From contig CAVOID010000008.1 in assembly GCA_963695875.1 (NCBI GenBank), forward strand, positions 1 to 64,000: a stretch of DNA of 64,000 bases, given 5' to 3'. Shown here one piece after another: positions 1 through 3,100 of the stretch (its first letter is position 1; each line of letters opens with the position of its first letter). This DNA comes from an uncultured delta proteobacterium (lineage in GTDB: Bacteria > Desulfobacterota > Syntrophia > Syntrophales > UBA2185). Below the pieces are notes generated by a model. It saw only the letters and a list, made by a program, of their open reading frames with translations. It was not told the DNA's origin and searched no databases. The position numbers were made by a program, and so were the translations under genes.

Positions 1-99
1 TCACCCATTAAAAGGCACCTTGTCAAGTAACAAAATTACACGTCTCGAAAATAATAATTTTCGTAAAAATAAAAGATACAGTATCGTTGTCATCAGCAT

Positions 100-403
100 C
101 TTTTCTGGTGCCGTAGTTTCTTTACTTGTGGTGTCAGTCTTCACTGCACCAGTCACCCATCAGGATTAAGGTCTTGCTGAAATAGAACATATCAGGACCC
201 ATTCCGCCATAGCGGACCAGAAAATCTTCGGTTCCAGGCCATGTCCAATTGTGGCTTCTAAGCTCAATTCTCATGGTTTTTAACCATCCTTCGTATGGCT
301 CACGGCATGGTCAGTAAAGATGTGAGAGCATCTGTCGGACGAAACGCTCTACCAATCAATAATATGGTTCTGCCAACGAAATCTCTGGATGAGCGTTCCG
401 TCC
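100..403 (-). ncRNA. Predicted bridge RNA / seekRNA of the IS110 element (boundaries approximate)
   Basis: 13-bp stem (337-349 / 391-403) encloses an internal loop whose ATCAATAAT (355-363, + strand) equals the element/flank junction at 1527-1535. A second loop has TCACCCAT (153-160), identical to the element end at 1-8. Confidence 0.75.
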
Positions 404-407
404 TGTT

Positions 408-1432
408 TCATGTGGCAAACAGTTTCTCCGGTATGAACGGTACCTGATCCTTCATGACATGATATGCTGCTCGGGCCAATTTATATGGGCCAGTGCATTA
501 TGTGCAATCATAAAATTTGTCTTCTGCATTTTACGGTTGTAATAAGCTCTTGACAGGGGATCATACCGCCTGGCAAGTTCCGCTGCTTCGGAAAATGCCC
601 ATGCCAGATACTTGTTACCATTTTTCTTATTTCCGCTGCCCTTTGCTTTTTCGTTGCTGGTCCAGCGGGACGAAACTCTTGCGACAATAGGAACAGTAAT
701 TGCCTACTTTTGAAACCGGTCAATGGATCCTGTTTCCAGCATGATAGTTAGACCAAGAACCTTTCCAATGCCGGGTAGCGTTAACAATTTTTGATAGGGA
801 TCCTTTAATCGAACCTTACACTCAACGGTGTATTCAATGGCCCGAATCTTCGATGTTAAAAAGTCGATGCTCTCTTTGGTGACCTTGCCGGACAGGGCTA
901 ACTCCTCATTTTCCTTTAGAAGAGGGGTCACACGGTCTTCCTTTAATCTTTTGATGTCATTACTGTCAATCTTGACGCCGCAGTTCCTCACGATAATGTT
1001 CTGCAGACTCAAGATCAGGGATGTCCTCAACTTGACCAGATGTCCCCTTTTGCGAAGCAGATCCCGAATAGCCCGCTCTTCCTTCGGATATATATGGCCT
1101 TCCGGTAAAATATCGAGTCTCAACATCTCCGCAAGCCAGAAAGCATCTTCTTTGTCATCCGAATGTTTCAGGCCCTTATACTTCTTAATGGCTGCCGTAT
1201 TCGCCAGATGAACCTTATAACCCGCATCCACCAAGGTGTCCACGATCCAATACCAGTTATAGGTGGATTCCACGACAATGCCGATTATGTGTTTCCGATG
1301 GGGACTGAGAAAATCGAGAATAATCCCAGAATCATTTGGTAATTTCTTCTTGGCAACCCTGTTCCCTTCGTGATCAATGATGGCCACATAAGTGTTGTTT
1401 GCATGTAAATCAAAAGCCGTGTACAATTCCAT
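408..1432 (-). CDS. IS110-family DEDD recombinase/transposase (three apparent frameshifts in the C-terminal part)
   Basis: MELYTAFDLH..., VVESTYNW, KHSDDKEDA, LTLPGIG motifs. C-terminus (GNYCSYCRK..SRWTSNEK..GNKYLAWAFSEAA..KLARAAYHVMK..LFAT*) recovered by frame changes near 708, 680 and 484. SD GAGGAGG upstream of ATG 1432. Confidence 0.92.
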
Positions 1433-1769
1433 ATAGCACCTCCTCAAGGTAAGATTGATCTCTTTCCCGGAGCATAACAGAATGTAACCATATCTGCTAT
1501 GCCCAGGAGGTGCCTTTTAGATGATTATCAATAATGCCTTGGCATGTGATGCAAAATCAAAAACATCAATAAACTTATTGCATCGTCTATCCTTATACCA
1601 GATTTAGCCCATCCCCTCTAAGGATAAAGGGCTTAATCTGATTTACTGCATATCTCCCACGAGAAGTACTGCGATGTAAGCTGCGTTTCAATTTATGTGA
1701 CTCGCTGCTTTATCTTTTTACAAAGCCTTCTATCTTCGATAATTTTGATGTTATATGAGTTCATCTTAC

Positions 1770-3100
1770 TGTTGTCAACAAATAGAATTGTCCTATTTTG
1801 TAGCAAATGAATTGTCCACTTTTGTGATACTATGGGAAGGGCGGTGGACTTACGCTGCCTTTCCTTTTTTTGTTTCTTTAAACTTCCCGCGTTGATCGTA
1901 AGCGGCCAATTTGCGAGGGCCATGAAAAACAGCGAGTGATCCATCCATATAGCGATGGACCCTTACCTTGACACGTACATAATGACAACGGTACTTGTCA
2001 GGGGGGATCTGCAAAGTCTTTCCCTCAAAGCTGACACAGTTATCCGAGGACACGGTACGCTCGTATTGTTCGCATAGGACGTCATCGATGTCTTTTCCTA
2101 TCCATGTGACGAAGGCTGATCCTTCCTCTGCGGCTGGCTGCATGAACTCGGCATTGAATGTCGGCAGATAAGTCTTAAGCAGATAACGGTTGGCGGCATC
2201 CATCATGGTGATTCCATAAGCGGCCAGTTCCTTGGTGAGCCGGTCCTGATGTGTGCGAAAAGCCCTTTCAATCCTCCCCCGTGCCTCCGGAGAATAGGCG
2301 GGGATCATCTCTATCCCCAAATGCCTCATGGCACGTCCAAATTGCGTCAGTTGGGTTTTACTTACCTTACCTCCCTCATCAGGCGTATACCAGTAATGAC
2401 TCCCGCGGTCGGTATAAAGAGAGCTGAATAAACCATGCTTAAGAATTATCTCCTTCACCCCTCGAAAACTGCTCTCCGTTCCTTCCTCGTGGACAAAAAA
2501 CATCGAATAATGCTCATTAGTTGCATCGTCCATGGTTACAATCAGGTCCCACTTCTTCCCTGGCACCCATTCATGAGTGCTTCCATCCTGATGTAACATC
2601 ATGCCTGGTATAGGAGATCGTTCCCGTCGTTTACGATGCGCTCCCCGCTTAGGCGCCTTGGGAACCAATCCTTGCGACTGGAGGGTGCTCTTTACCCACG
2701 TGTAACTCCTTTGACCACCATCGTGTTTATACCACCCATAAAAATGCTTTACGTTCCAACCCAGGTGCCGCCTCTTGTATCTGTCAACAAGCGCTATAAC
2801 TTCATCCACGGAAGCACGACGGGAAGATATCTGCGTCAGACGCTTATCCAACAGTCCTTCCAATCCATTCTCCTCGTAACGATTAATGTAGCGCCGAAAC
2901 GTCCTGGAACATACTCCCAATAGCCTGGCTGCTTCTTCCTGGGTCAATCGACTCTCTGTCCATCCCTCATATGACTCCTCAAATCGCATCTTCCGGATCT
3001 CCTGCATCAACTCTGTCCGTCTCATCTGTCACCTCCAGGATGACTCTTAAACCGGACAGATTATGTGCTACAACTCCGGACAGTTTATTTGCTTCTAACA
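1770..3100 (-). mobile_element. IS1202-family (ISNCY/IS481-related) insertion sequence, 1331 bp, with 16-bp target-site duplication
   Basis: TGT...ACA termini. Imperfect IRs, each with two repeated ..CAAAT/CACAT...TGTCC motifs. Direct repeat TATGAGTTCATCTTAC at 1754-1769 and 3101-3116. Confidence 0.88.
1850..3025 (-). CDS. ISNCY/IS1202-family DDE transposase
   Basis: N-terminal HTH (TQEEAARLLGVCSRTFRRY). rve-type core with MLHQDGS, LYTDRGS and SPEARGRIER motifs. ORF intact. Confidence 0.92.
   Translation of the reverse strand: MRRTELMQEIRKMRFEESYEGWTESRLTQEEAARLLGVCSRTFRRYINRYEENGLEGLLDKRLTQISSRRASVDEVIALVDRYKRRHLGWNVKHFYGWYKHDGGQRSYTWVKSTLQSQGLVPKAPKRGAHRKRRERSPIPGMMLHQDGSTHEWVPGKKWDLIVTMDDATNEHYSMFFVHEEGTESSFRGVKEIILKHGLFSSLYTDRGSHYWYTPDEGGKVSKTQLTQFGRAMRHLGIEMIPAYSPEARGRIERAFRTHQDRLTKELAAYGITMMDAANRYLLKTYLPTFNAEFMQPAAEEGSAFVTWIGKDIDDVLCEQYERTVSSDNCVSFEGKTLQIPPDKYRCHYVRVKVRVHRYMDGSLAVFHGPRKLAAYDQRGKFKETKKGKAA

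What the first reader, a model, noticed from the sequence alone, without database searches (positions are those of the whole stretch)
100..403. IS110 3' non-coding region carries readable bridge/seekRNA guides for both target and donor DNA
Seen: a 13-bp stem (337-349 / 391-403) encloses an internal loop. On the transcribed minus strand the loop reads ATTATTGAT (355-363), identical to the flank+core at the other end of the element (1527-1535). A second loop reads ATGGGTGA (153-160), identical to the element's own end (1-8). The opposite side of that loop (220-227) matches the other donor half GATAATCA at 6/8. Both left guides end in the shared core (T)GA and are followed by YTGG. A given 8-mer is expected in 400 nt by chance only about 0.6% of the time, and two occur in parallel structural positions. 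Known: IS110/IS1111 recombinases use a bispecific guide RNA with target- and donor-binding loops, encoded 3' of the CDS in IS1111-type elements. Inference: this is a programmable RNA-guided recombinase with a GA core and a ~300-400-nt guide region in which the right guide precedes the left guide.
Basis: partly seen in the sequence, partly recalled or inferred. Interest (0 to 1): 0.88.

Follow-up and report, generated by a model that had tools for sequence, protein, structure and literature searches.

The report
IS1111-type insertion sequence with guide RNA
This is an insertion sequence of the known RNA-guided IS110/IS1111 kind, whose tail appears to encode a folded guide RNA that spells out its insertion site and its own ends; it is a clear example, not a new mechanism.

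Summary
Window 1-1529 (minus strand) is an IS110-family element of the IS1111 type. It has a 12-bp subterminal inverted repeat, a transposase that is frameshifted here but intact in a second copy on contig C7, and a ~407-nt non-coding region 3' of the gene. The 13-bp stem and both loop-to-end identities are at the stated coordinates.

Comparison with 79 related loci supports the reading. The stem-loop at 334-406 is a conserved module with compensatory base changes. Its 3' strand copies each element's left flank plus GA. Its 5' strand is complementary to GA plus the right flank (0 of 10,000 shuffles reach either score). The internal ATGGGTGA is family-wide, and its last base follows the right junction in 4 of 5 variant lineages.

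Two corrections. By homology the right-target guide is 375-385, so the bases before window position 1 should read ...GATTTCG, not GAGATT. The one extra base on C7 fits this register. The 6/8 right-donor match is invariant in the family and cannot be tested.

A right guide preceding the left guide is already published for IS1111 seekRNAs. A second target-loop-like module (232-312) is unexplained. Verdict: a new member of a known kind. RNA expression, binding and reprogramming are untested.

The parts
1..1529 (-). Whole IS110-family (IS1111-type) element, 1529 bp, counting the GA core at both junctions.
   Evidence: The second copy, C7:2-1535, is 99.5% identical and diverges after window 1535. 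Relatives are 1488-1851 bp with the same conserved ends.
1..8 (-). Right end of the element: left-donor half plus core, ATGGGT-GA. The core is at 2..1. The contig stops exactly here.
   Evidence: The right end ...GCCTTTTAATGGGTGA is conserved in relatives and is followed by divergent flanks.
9..20 (.). Right subterminal inverted repeat (plus strand TAAAAGGCACCT).
   Evidence: It is a 12-bp exact inverted repeat with 1508-1519. TAAAAGGC/GCCTTTTA recurs at both ends of most relatives.
21..26 (-). TTGACA, a candidate -35 of a circle-junction promoter. It lies 18 nt from the GATAAT that would form when the right end (GA) joins the left end (TAAT).
   Evidence: TTGAC is invariant or nearly invariant in 34 of 34 aligned tails. 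The junction is read. Pjunc of ISEc11 is cited in PMC13626964 (reference list seen). Promoter function is inferred.
149..164 (-). 3' strand of the donor-binding loop, CCTGATGGGTGACTGG. The left donor guide ATGGGTGA is at 160..153.
   Evidence: It is identical to the element end at 8..1. It is present about 150-190 nt from the right end in most of the relatives with a parsed right end, and at 351 nt in L010-L012, whose tails are longer. Its last base follows the junction in 4 of 5 variant lineages.
203..216 (-). Small hairpin UCCGCUAUGGCGGA inside the donor multiloop.
   Evidence: Helix 9: 90.6% of cells paired, and 3 of 5 pairs have changes on both sides.
217..231 (-). 5' strand of the donor loop, CCGAAGAUUUUCUGG. 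The candidate right donor guide GAUUUUC is at 226..220.
   Evidence: It is complementary to GATAATC at 6 of 7 positions. It is invariant in the family except for one position. The right-donor half GATAATCAT is also invariant, so no covariation test is possible.
232..312 (-). 'Loop 2', a second module shaped like the target-binding loop. Its 5' strand is UACGAAGGA, its inner hairpin is UGG-UUAAAAA-CCA, and its 3' strand is UGAGAAUUGA. Function unknown.
   Evidence: It is conserved in 34 of 34 aligned tails. Its outer stem is 97.6% paired, with 7 of 10 pairs changed on both sides. It gives weak, recurrent hits to the target-loop model. Its 3' strand tracks the left flank weakly.
334..406 (-). 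Target-binding loop module, equivalent to a short seekRNA. The outer stem is 403..391 with 349..337.
   Evidence: Covariance model R1 scores 55.3 bits on the minus strand and 15.8 on the plus strand. Fold z = -6.55. Helix 1 is 97.3% paired, with 8 of 11 pairs changed on both sides.
375..385 (-). Right target guide, RNA GAGAUUUCGUU. It predicts a right flank on the top strand of GA|CGAAATCTC.
   Evidence: The register is set by alignment to relatives whose guide ...GGGGUU faces the junction GA|CCCC. The extra base on C7 (C on the top strand) fits this register.
356..363 (-). Left target guide ATTATTGA, followed by TTGG.
   Evidence: It is identical to the left flank plus core at 1535..1528 in both copies. 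The homologous position tracks the left flank in relatives.
408..1432 (-). Transposase gene (DEDD/RuvC-like N-terminal domain plus PF02371 C-terminal domain). It is broken in the window by three indels relative to C7, at about 482-483, 677 and 710.
   Evidence: The intact-frame versions of the three indels also occur in contigs from other runs (table 4).
1508..1519 (.). Left subterminal inverted repeat (plus strand AGGTGCCTTTTA).
1521..1527 (-). Left end of the element: right-donor half TAATCAT.
   Evidence: GATAATCAT is conserved in nearly all relatives.
1528..1535 (-). Left junction: left target ATTATT (1535..1530) plus core GA (1529..1528).
   Evidence: Both copies share this stretch and diverge beyond 1535.

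Best explanation
Window 1-1529 (minus strand) is an IS1111-type member of the IS110 family, related at about 50% amino-acid identity to plasmid-borne transposases, the best-matching of which are annotated as ISGsu4-family.

Inferred mechanism, by analogy with characterised relatives:
- The element excises as a circle.
- Joining its right and left ends would create a TTGACA-18 nt-GATAAT promoter.
- That promoter would drive the transposase gene and, downstream of it, a ~400-nt structured RNA.

Shown or supported at the sequence level:
- The first module of that RNA (334-406) is the target-binding loop. Its 3' strand, AUUAUUGA, has the sequence of the left flank plus the GA core, so it can pair with the bottom strand. 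Its 5' strand, GAGAUUUCGUU, is complementary to GA plus the right flank.
- The native site is therefore predicted to be ATTATT-GA-CGAAATC.
- A later multiloop (149-231) carries AUGGGUGA, which is the element's right end plus core, and a weaker GAUUUUC facing the left end GATAATC. This is the donor-binding loop.

The window copy has a frameshifted transposase. The C7 copy is intact and could act in trans.

Shown here: the anatomy, RNA-type structural covariation, and guide-flank covariation across relatives. Inferred from the published family mechanism: transcription, RNA-protein binding and catalysis.
For: Family and subgroup.
- PF01548 (E 2.4e-16), PF02371 (E 1.3e-12) and NF033542 at 170.3 bits against a cutoff of 140.
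- A 12-bp subterminal inverted repeat, a 407-nt tail 3' of the stop codon, and a 340-345 aa protein.

Relatives.
- 224 relatives were confirmed among 338 candidate stretches, and 79 loci were kept.
- Both ends are conserved across them: (Y)TGA|TAATCAT.TAAAAGGCACC and GCCTTTTAATGGGTGA|.

Target loop.
- It was parsed in 76 of 81 sequences.
- Over 58 distinct guide pairs, the left guide matches its own left flank at 5.80 of 7 positions against 3.96 when shuffled (n=46; 0 of 10,000 shuffles reach it).
- The complement of the right guide matches the right flank at 4.35 of 7 against 3.70 (n=45; 0 of 10,000).
- Retargeted examples match: L015 GAGACCCGA, L041 AAGGGCTGA, L055 ATGACTTGA, L067 TAAGTCTGA, L080 GAGTGATGA, L061 AATCATGA. 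For the right guide, L015 and L080 have GUAGCGUU against GACGCTAC, and L069 has UUUGAGUG against GACTCAAA.

Structure.
- 51 pairs are 90.5% paired, against 84.5% when shuffled and 32-43% when slid.
- 31 pairs have changes on both sides, against 15.3 (0 of 500 shuffles).
- The target-loop model scores 55-87 bits on the transposase strand in 15 of 15 sources, against 11-23 bits antisense.

Donor loop.
- The internal GGGTGN matches the junction base N in L034, L055, the L062-64/L070 group and L068.

Register.
- The single extra base on C7 is C, as the homology register predicts.

Literature.
- Target-complementary segments in the order top-strand match then bottom-strand match are reported for IS1111 seekRNAs (PMC11187229, sections 9 and 12).
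- IS1111 bridge RNAs are predicted in the right end, with donor-binding nucleotides often in a multiloop, and right-donor pairing in IS621 is discontiguous (PMC11208160, passages found).
Against: - No RNA evidence. No RNA run is listed, and Rfam has no matching family.
- The right flank of both copies is missing because both contigs start at the element end. In this element the right guide is therefore tested by one base only.
- Donor-loop support is thin. Loop and ends are almost invariant.
- End variants in 7 sequences are not mirrored in the loop: GGGCGA in L015, L024, L036 and L080; GGGAGA in L023; GGGTAA in L014; ATAGGTGA in C7. L075 is also discordant. The T-to-C cases could be tolerated as G-U pairs. 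The others could not.
- The right donor guide has a conserved mismatch and one freely varying position.
- The exact core (GA, TG or TGA) is not resolved. L034, L055, L062-64 and L068 have GC or GG at the right junction but GA at the left.
- The shuffle tests ignore relatedness of the elements, so they overstate significance.
- The window copy's transposase is frameshifted.
- No other copy with these guides was found in 338 genomes of the order or in the metagenome collection.
Confidence: 0.88

Rival explanations
1. Only the first module (334-406) is a guide, acting as a short seekRNA for the target. The internal ATGGGTGA and GAUUUUC are conserved scaffold or protein-binding sequence. The element's ends would then be recognised by the transposase through the subterminal inverted repeats and the flanking target halves, not by RNA pairing.
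For: - Loop and ends are nearly invariant, so identity could reflect shared constraint.
- Seven sequences have end variants that the loop does not track, and L075 is discordant.
- The right donor match is 6/8, with a conserved mismatch and a freely varying position.
- In the sections I read, the seekRNA paper describes only target matches in the RNA and stresses the need for flanking target halves around the donor (PMC11187229, sections 9 and 12).
Against: - Four independent lineages changed the last base of the internal GGGTGN together with the right junction.
- The loop has the same layout as the target loop: guide, then (Y)TGG, with the right-hand guide 5' of the left-hand guide.
- Donor loops are demonstrated for IS621 and predicted for IS1111 elements (PMC11208160, passages).
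Confidence: 0.1
2. The repeats act as DNA, or are chance. On this view the internal copies of the end and flank are leftovers of past rearrangements or protein-binding sites, and no guide RNA is involved.
For: The sequence is AT-rich. A 9-mer and an 8-mer recur 5 and 6 times in the 64-kb window. No RNA data exist.
Against: - The joint chance of both matches inside a 400-nt tail is about 4e-5, from the densities.
- The stems keep pairing through G-U pairs and double changes that make sense only for the minus-strand RNA.
- The model scores 55-87 bits sense against 11-23 antisense.
- Guides follow flanks in dozens of relatives.
Confidence: 0.02

Closest known systems
IS1111-family seekRNA elements ISEc11, ISPa11, ISKpn4 and ISPst6 (Siddiquee et al. 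2024, PMC11187229)
   Same: - A DEDD transposase of about 340 aa.
- Subterminal inverted repeats.
- A long non-coding region downstream of the transposase gene.
- An RNA with a top-strand-complementary segment 5' of a bottom-strand-complementary segment, overlapping at the insertion point.
- A module of about 73 nt here, against short seekRNAs of 82-96 nt.
- A junction promoter formed on circularisation.
   Different: - It is a different lineage. The nearest annotated hits are at about 50% identity, and the best of them are labelled ISGsu4-family.
- The target is different: ATTATT-GA-(CGAAATC predicted).
- A second target-loop-like module and an explicit end-matching loop are visible here. I did not see these described in the sections read.
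- Nothing here has been tested experimentally.
IS621 bridge RNA (Durrant et al. 2024, PMC11208160; Hiraizumi et al. 2024, PMC11208158, listing only)
   Same: - Bispecific logic. The left guides have the sense of the left half plus core, and the right guides are antisense to the core plus right half.
- The core is included in the target-loop guides and the left donor guide; the right donor guide faces it only in the weaker, shifted register.
- The guides sit in internal loops closed by stems.
   Different: - The RNA is encoded 3' of the gene in the right end, not in the left end.
- The guide order within each loop is reversed.
- The donor guides are separated by hairpins in a multiloop.
- The core is GA rather than CT.
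- The tail is about 400 nt rather than 150-250 nt.
ISGsu4-family transposases (annotation label on the nearest plasmid hits)
   Same: Same protein family over 97-100% of the length at 47-51% identity.
   Different: Only the annotation label was seen. I did not examine the non-coding regions or targets of those plasmid copies.

Membership tests
IS110 family (DEDD transposases) | An N-terminal DEDD/RuvC-like domain (PF01548) plus a C-terminal PF02371 domain. | tested here: met
   PF01548 scores 60.3 bits against a cutoff of 29. PF02371 scores 48.3 against 21.3. NF033542 scores 170.3 against 140 on the intact C7 protein.
IS110 family (DEDD transposases) | Site-specific insertion, with a short core shared by both junctions rather than a conventional target duplication with terminal inverted repeats. 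| tested here: inconclusive
   Both copies lie after ATTATTGA, and GA or TGA is present at both junctions. The right flank of this element is missing, so the empty site cannot be rebuilt.
IS1111 subgroup | Subterminal inverted repeats of 7-17 bp. | tested here: met
   A 12-bp repeat, TAAAAGGCACCT, at 9-20 and 1508-1519. It is conserved in relatives. The length range is from PMC11208160 (passage).
IS1111 subgroup | The long non-coding region lies downstream of the transposase gene, and the transposase is about 330-350 aa. | tested here: met
   The stop codon is at window 408-410, leaving a 407-nt tail. The protein is 340 aa from the ATG, or 345 aa from the TTG that the ORF listing picks as start. 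The criteria are from PMC11187229, section 6.
Bridge RNA / seekRNA | A structured RNA in the non-coding region, supported by compensatory changes on the transposase strand. | tested here: met
Bridge RNA / seekRNA | The target-loop guides match this element's own flanks. | tested here: inconclusive
   Left guide: 8 of 8 with the left flank plus core in both copies. Right guide: only one flank base exists (on C7), and it agrees with the homology register.
Bridge RNA / seekRNA | Guides covary with insertion sites across orthologues. | tested here: met
   (0 of 10,000 shuffles reach the observed score for the left or the right guide) and the individual retargeted loci.
Bridge RNA / seekRNA | A donor-binding loop that matches the element's ends. 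| tested here: inconclusive
   Left donor guide: 8 of 8 in the window copy, and 4 of 5 variant lineages concordant at the last base. Right donor guide: 6 of 8 and invariant. Seven end variants are not tracked.
Bridge RNA / seekRNA | The RNA is made, binds the transposase and is required for transposition. | not testable with these tools
   No RNA run was listed.
Rfam families | A match to a curated RNA family. | tested here: not met
   Only 4 chance-level matches (E from 2.1 to 8, all far below the gathering scores) in window 1-2000.

The most novel reading that the evidence does not exclude
The conserved second module (232-312) is a working third guide loop. It would be a paralogue of the target-binding loop that reads the target a second time, reads an alternative site, or reads the junctions during excision. 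This lineage would then use a three-loop bridge RNA rather than the two-loop design described so far.

Supporting points:
- Its outer stem is well supported by compensatory changes.
- Its two single strands vary about as much as true guides at the core-proximal positions.
- Its 3' strand tracks the left flank above shuffled expectation.

Limits: its 5' strand does not convincingly track the right flank, and relatedness of the elements could explain the weak signal.
Probability: 0.15. Interest if true: 0.7.

Novelty: new member of a known kind. Interest (0 to 1): 0.35.

Why it matters
The class is already known, and NCBI's family model already names these proteins RNA-guided transposases. The element itself is therefore an expected find.

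Three things have some value:
- This lineage is common in Desulfobacterota and Nitrospirota metagenome-assembled genomes. It offers a clean natural series of retargeted guides with matching flanks, roughly ten distinct left-flank words and several right-flank words, on one conserved scaffold. That is useful for learning the pairing register of IS1111-type RNAs, which are less well characterised than IS621.
- The element here has an unusual AT-rich site that was seen nowhere else in the collections searched.
- The extra target-loop-like module is a concrete, testable oddity.

Tried and rejected
- **Rfam scan of window 1-2000.** Only chance-level matches.
- **Predicted empty site.** I searched the own genome for ATTATTGACGAAATC. 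There is no exact copy. The best are two sites with one mismatch on C8, and many sites have 2-3 mismatches, which is uninformative in this AT-rich genome.
- **Other copies with the same guides.** 0 of 338 other genomes of the order, allowing up to 2 mismatches. 0 exact matches in metagenome contigs. A relaxed left-guide pattern gave 17 matches, none in an IS context.
- **Public runs.** 20 DNA holders, with a best share of 0.42. No RNA holder is listed.
- **Laying contigs of X1-X4.**
  - X2 record 9 and X4 record 25 run 294 nt and 27 nt beyond window position 1.
  - X3 record 24 covers 1528-1600 without a difference and then continues. It is a possible empty site.
  - Loose ends after 1532 in X3 and X4 suggest other insertion sites ending ...ATAATTGA and ...AGAATTGA. 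Those contigs may belong to diverged relatives: the one listed piece that stops there with differences, X4 record 32, has 3 differences in 37 nt.
- **Empty sites in relatives.**
  - The C7 flank aligns to family genomes only from 88 nt beyond the IS. The intergenic part is not conserved.
  - The C8 flank has a 78%-identical counterpart in same-genus genome G179. It reads ...GCCAATGC-GTAATCAA-CACAATTTTCTCG, too diverged to confirm or refute CGAAATC.
- **Promoter and terminator scan.** No convincing internal promoter for the RNA.
- **RNAalifold.** It paired the putative donor guides into local helices (227-233/248-254 and 313-316/327-330) with no double changes. I preferred the hairpin at 235-251, which has compensatory support.
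- **My helix 8** was mis-indexed by one column and should be ignored.
- **Earlier findings of this scan.** Nothing relevant.
- **Supplements.** I did not open the supplementary figures of PMC11187229 and PMC11208160. They may show long-seekRNA folds or IS1111 donor loops that bear on the second module.

Full report
**What is there**

The window is the first 64 kb of contig C8 of a 16-contig, 82.6%-complete genome. On the minus strand, window 1-1529 is an insertion sequence. A second copy, 99.5% identical, lies at C7:2-1535.

- The two copies diverge immediately beyond window 1535.
- Both begin at a contig start. C7 carries one extra base.
- In the window the transposase frame is broken by three indels near 482-483, 677 and 710. 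On C7 it is intact, 340 aa from the ATG.
- The intact-frame versions of all three indels also appear in contigs of other public runs (table 4).
- The protein hits PF01548 and PF02371, and NCBIfam NF033542 'IS110 family RNA-guided transposase' above its cutoff.
- The nearest annotated plasmid hits are at about 50% identity, and the best of them are labelled ISGsu4-family.

**The observation**

- The stem 337-349/391-403 has 13 pairs, one of which is G-U only on the minus strand.
- Minus-strand 363..355 reads ATTATTGAT, the same as 1535..1527.
- Minus-strand 160..153 reads ATGGGTGA, the same as 8..1.
- Plus-strand 220-227 matches GATAATCA at 6 of 8.
- Both left guides are followed by YTGG.

From shuffle-based densities, each identity has a chance of about 0.5-0.8% in a 400-nt tail. 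The 6/8 match is not significant by itself. The module 334-406 folds at -31.2 kcal/mol with z = -6.55 on the minus strand.

**Ends of the element**

A protein-seeded scan of one genome per species confirmed 224 relatives and kept 79 loci at 58-75% identity. They come mostly from Desulfobacterota and Nitrospirota assemblies.

- Their left junctions read [flank](Y)TGA|TAATCAT(A/C)TAAAAGGCACC.
- Their right junctions read TTGAC...GCCTTTTAATGGGTGA|[flank].

So window 1-2 is the true end of the element. The assembler broke both contigs there. The element has a 12-bp subterminal inverted repeat at 9-20 and 1508-1519. GA, within a shared TGA, sits at both junctions.

These features match the published criteria for the IS1111 subgroup: the subterminal repeat, a 407-nt tail downstream of the gene, and a 340-aa protein (PMC11187229, section 6; PMC11208160, passages).

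Joining the right end to the left end would place the conserved TTGACA (26..21) 18 nt from GATAAT. This is a candidate junction promoter of the kind reported for ISEc11, which I saw only as a citation in PMC13626964.

**The target-binding loop**

I aligned 34 non-redundant tails. The region homologous to 334-406 is a conserved module:
- an outer stem;
- a short CC/GG helix;
- a 5' single strand;
- a small GG-loop-CC hairpin;
- a 3' single strand ending in (Y)TGA;
- then TTGG.

The outer stem keeps pairing through many double changes, with 6-10 sequences per pair at five positions.

For my 51-pair structure of the whole tail:

| Measure | Observed | Controls |
|---|---|---|
| Cells paired | 90.5% | 84.5% shuffled; 32-43% slid |
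| Pairs with changes on both sides | 31 | 15.3 shuffled (0 of 500 shuffles reach the observed value) |

A covariance model of the module scores 55-87 bits on the transposase strand in 15 of 15 sources, against 11-23 bits on the other strand. Only the two known copies are found in the own genome.

**Guides follow flanks**

I could parse the module in 76 of 81 sequences. The misses were L009, L042, L056, L060 and L079. Over 58 distinct guide pairs:

| Comparison | Observed (of 7) | Shuffled | n | Shuffles reaching observed |
|---|---|---|---|---|
| 7 nt before GA in the 3' strand vs own left flank | 5.80 | 3.96 | 46 | 0 of 10,000 |
| Complement of the 5' strand vs 7 nt after the core | 4.35 | 3.70 | 45 | 0 of 10,000 |

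Per-locus matches out of 7:

| Matches | 7 | 6 | 5 | 4 | 3 | 2 | 1 |
|---|---|---|---|---|---|---|---|
| Left flank (loci) | 15 | 31 | 12 | 3 | 2 | 0 | 0 |
| Right flank (loci) | 5 | 12 | 16 | 11 | 10 | 2 | 4 |

The most telling cases are elements that left the common site (...AGACYTGA|CCCC...).
- L015 has GAGACCCGA and GUAGCGUU, with flanks GAGACCCGA and GACGCTAC.
- L080 has GAGTGATGA and GUAGCGUU.
- L069 has UUUGAGUG with flank GACTCAAA.
- L055, L041, L067, L061 and L062 likewise carry matching guides.

These shuffles ignore relatedness and so overstate significance. The independent retargeting events are the stronger argument.

**Corrected register for this element**

In relatives the 5' strand ends ...GGGGUU|GG, and the two U face the core (U with G, U with A). 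Aligned to that, our strand is GAGAUUUCGUU|GG (plus-strand 375-385).

- The predicted right side on the top strand is therefore GA|CGAAATCTC.
- The full predicted site is ATTATT-GA-CGAAATC.

This is one base, so the support is weak.

I could not obtain more.
- No other copy with these guides exists in 338 genomes of the order or in the metagenome collection.
- Orthologous intergenic regions are not conserved.
- The 78%-identical counterpart in G179 is too diverged to decide.
- Contigs in public runs do run past position 1 and past 1528, but their letters were not printed.

**The donor-binding loop**

CCUGAUGGGUGACUGG (164..149) lies about 150-190 nt from the right end in most of the relatives with a parsed right end, and at 351 nt in L010-L012, whose tails are longer. 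It has the same layout as the target loop's 3' strand. Loop and end are almost invariant, so tests are few.

- Where the last base of the right junction is not A, the loop carries the same base in L034 (C), L055 (G), the L062-64/L070 group (C) and L068 (G).
- It does not in L075.
- End variants elsewhere are not mirrored: GGGCGA in four loci, GGGAGA in L023, GGGTAA in L014, and ATAGGTGA in our C7 copy. The T-to-C cases could be G-U tolerated. The others look like changes in single copies.

The 5' strand CCGAAGAUUUUCUGG (231..217) is invariant except at one position. It faces GATAATC with one conserved mismatch.

Discontiguous right-donor pairing in IS621, and multiloop donor sites in IS1111 elements, are both mentioned by Durrant et al.. 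I rate the donor-loop assignment as likely, not shown.

The GC and GG junction variants also mean the exact crossover within TGA is unresolved.

**An unexplained second module**

Between the two loops lies a conserved module (232-312) built like the target loop.

- It has an outer stem that is 97.6% paired, with 7 of 10 pairs doubly changed. It also has a CC/GG helix, a UGG-loop-CCA hairpin and two single strands.
- The target-loop model hits it weakly (8-13 bits, E 0.5-9) at the homologous place: at full length in 6 of 15 sources, and as a partial hit to its central hairpin-and-guide segment in 4 more.
- In most relatives its strands resemble the common target.
- Its 3' strand tracks the left flank modestly: 4.90 of 7 against 4.16 (1 of 10,000 shuffles). 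Its 5' strand does not convincingly track the right flank.
- In our element it reads UACGAAGGA ... UGAGAAUUGA. It shares only the ATTGA with the left flank.

It could be a structural duplicate, or a third recognition loop. I found no description of such a module in the passages and sections read. The supplementary figures of the two 2024 papers were not opened.

**Verdict**

It is also what current knowledge predicts.

- Durrant et al. report predicted bridge RNAs in 93% of IS1111 elements, located in the right end.
- Siddiquee et al. showed the 'top-strand match first' order experimentally.

This is a new member of a known kind. It has a clean natural covariation series, a corrected target prediction, and one unexplained extra module. 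RNA expression, transposase binding and programmability remain inferences.

Noticed in passing
window 232-312 (minus strand): A conserved second module shaped like the target-binding loop sits between the target and donor loops. Its outer stem has compensatory support. Its 3' strand weakly follows the left flank. Function unknown.
   Followed up: partly
window 1768-3100: A second, unrelated insertion sequence lies about 230 bp from the IS110-type element. It has a 391-aa ORF on the minus strand at 1850-3025. Three more full copies at over 99.7% identity lie on C8, C9 and C4, and there is a partial copy on C11. I did not run a family search on its protein.
   Followed up: partly
G000 contigs C7 and C8, position 1: Both contigs start exactly at the right end of the element (C7 one base beyond it).
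   Followed up: yes
L003-L012, L035-L040, L074 left flanks: Most relatives sit in a recurring, partly palindromic site of the form ...(A)TGAG(Y)CAAGAGCAGACTTGA|CCCC(T)TT.... It is probably a dispersed genomic repeat, and several copies per genome are occupied.
   Followed up: no
L058:1545-1590: The right end of this relative is duplicated in tandem: CAAGGGGCCTTTTAATGGGTGA occurs twice before the flank.
   Followed up: no
L003-L008, L010-L012, L016-L022, L041, L059: Some relatives have tails of 520-740 nt instead of about 400 nt. The extra sequence lies either before the target loop or between the modules. The loops themselves are retained.
   Followed up: no
window 1532, runs X3 and X4 (table 7): Contigs from peat metagenomes match the element's left end up to 1532 and then diverge. 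This implies other insertion sites whose left flanks end ...ATAATTGA and ...AGAATTGA. The latter equals the 3' strand of the second module (AGAATTGA). These contigs may come from diverged relatives: the one listed piece that stops there with differences, X4 record 32, has 3 differences in 37 nt.
   Followed up: no
review table in PMC13604230: The published ISKpn4 and ISPst6 target (...TTGAA*CGAAT...) resembles the site predicted here (ATTATTGA|CGAAATC). This may be coincidence.
   Followed up: no
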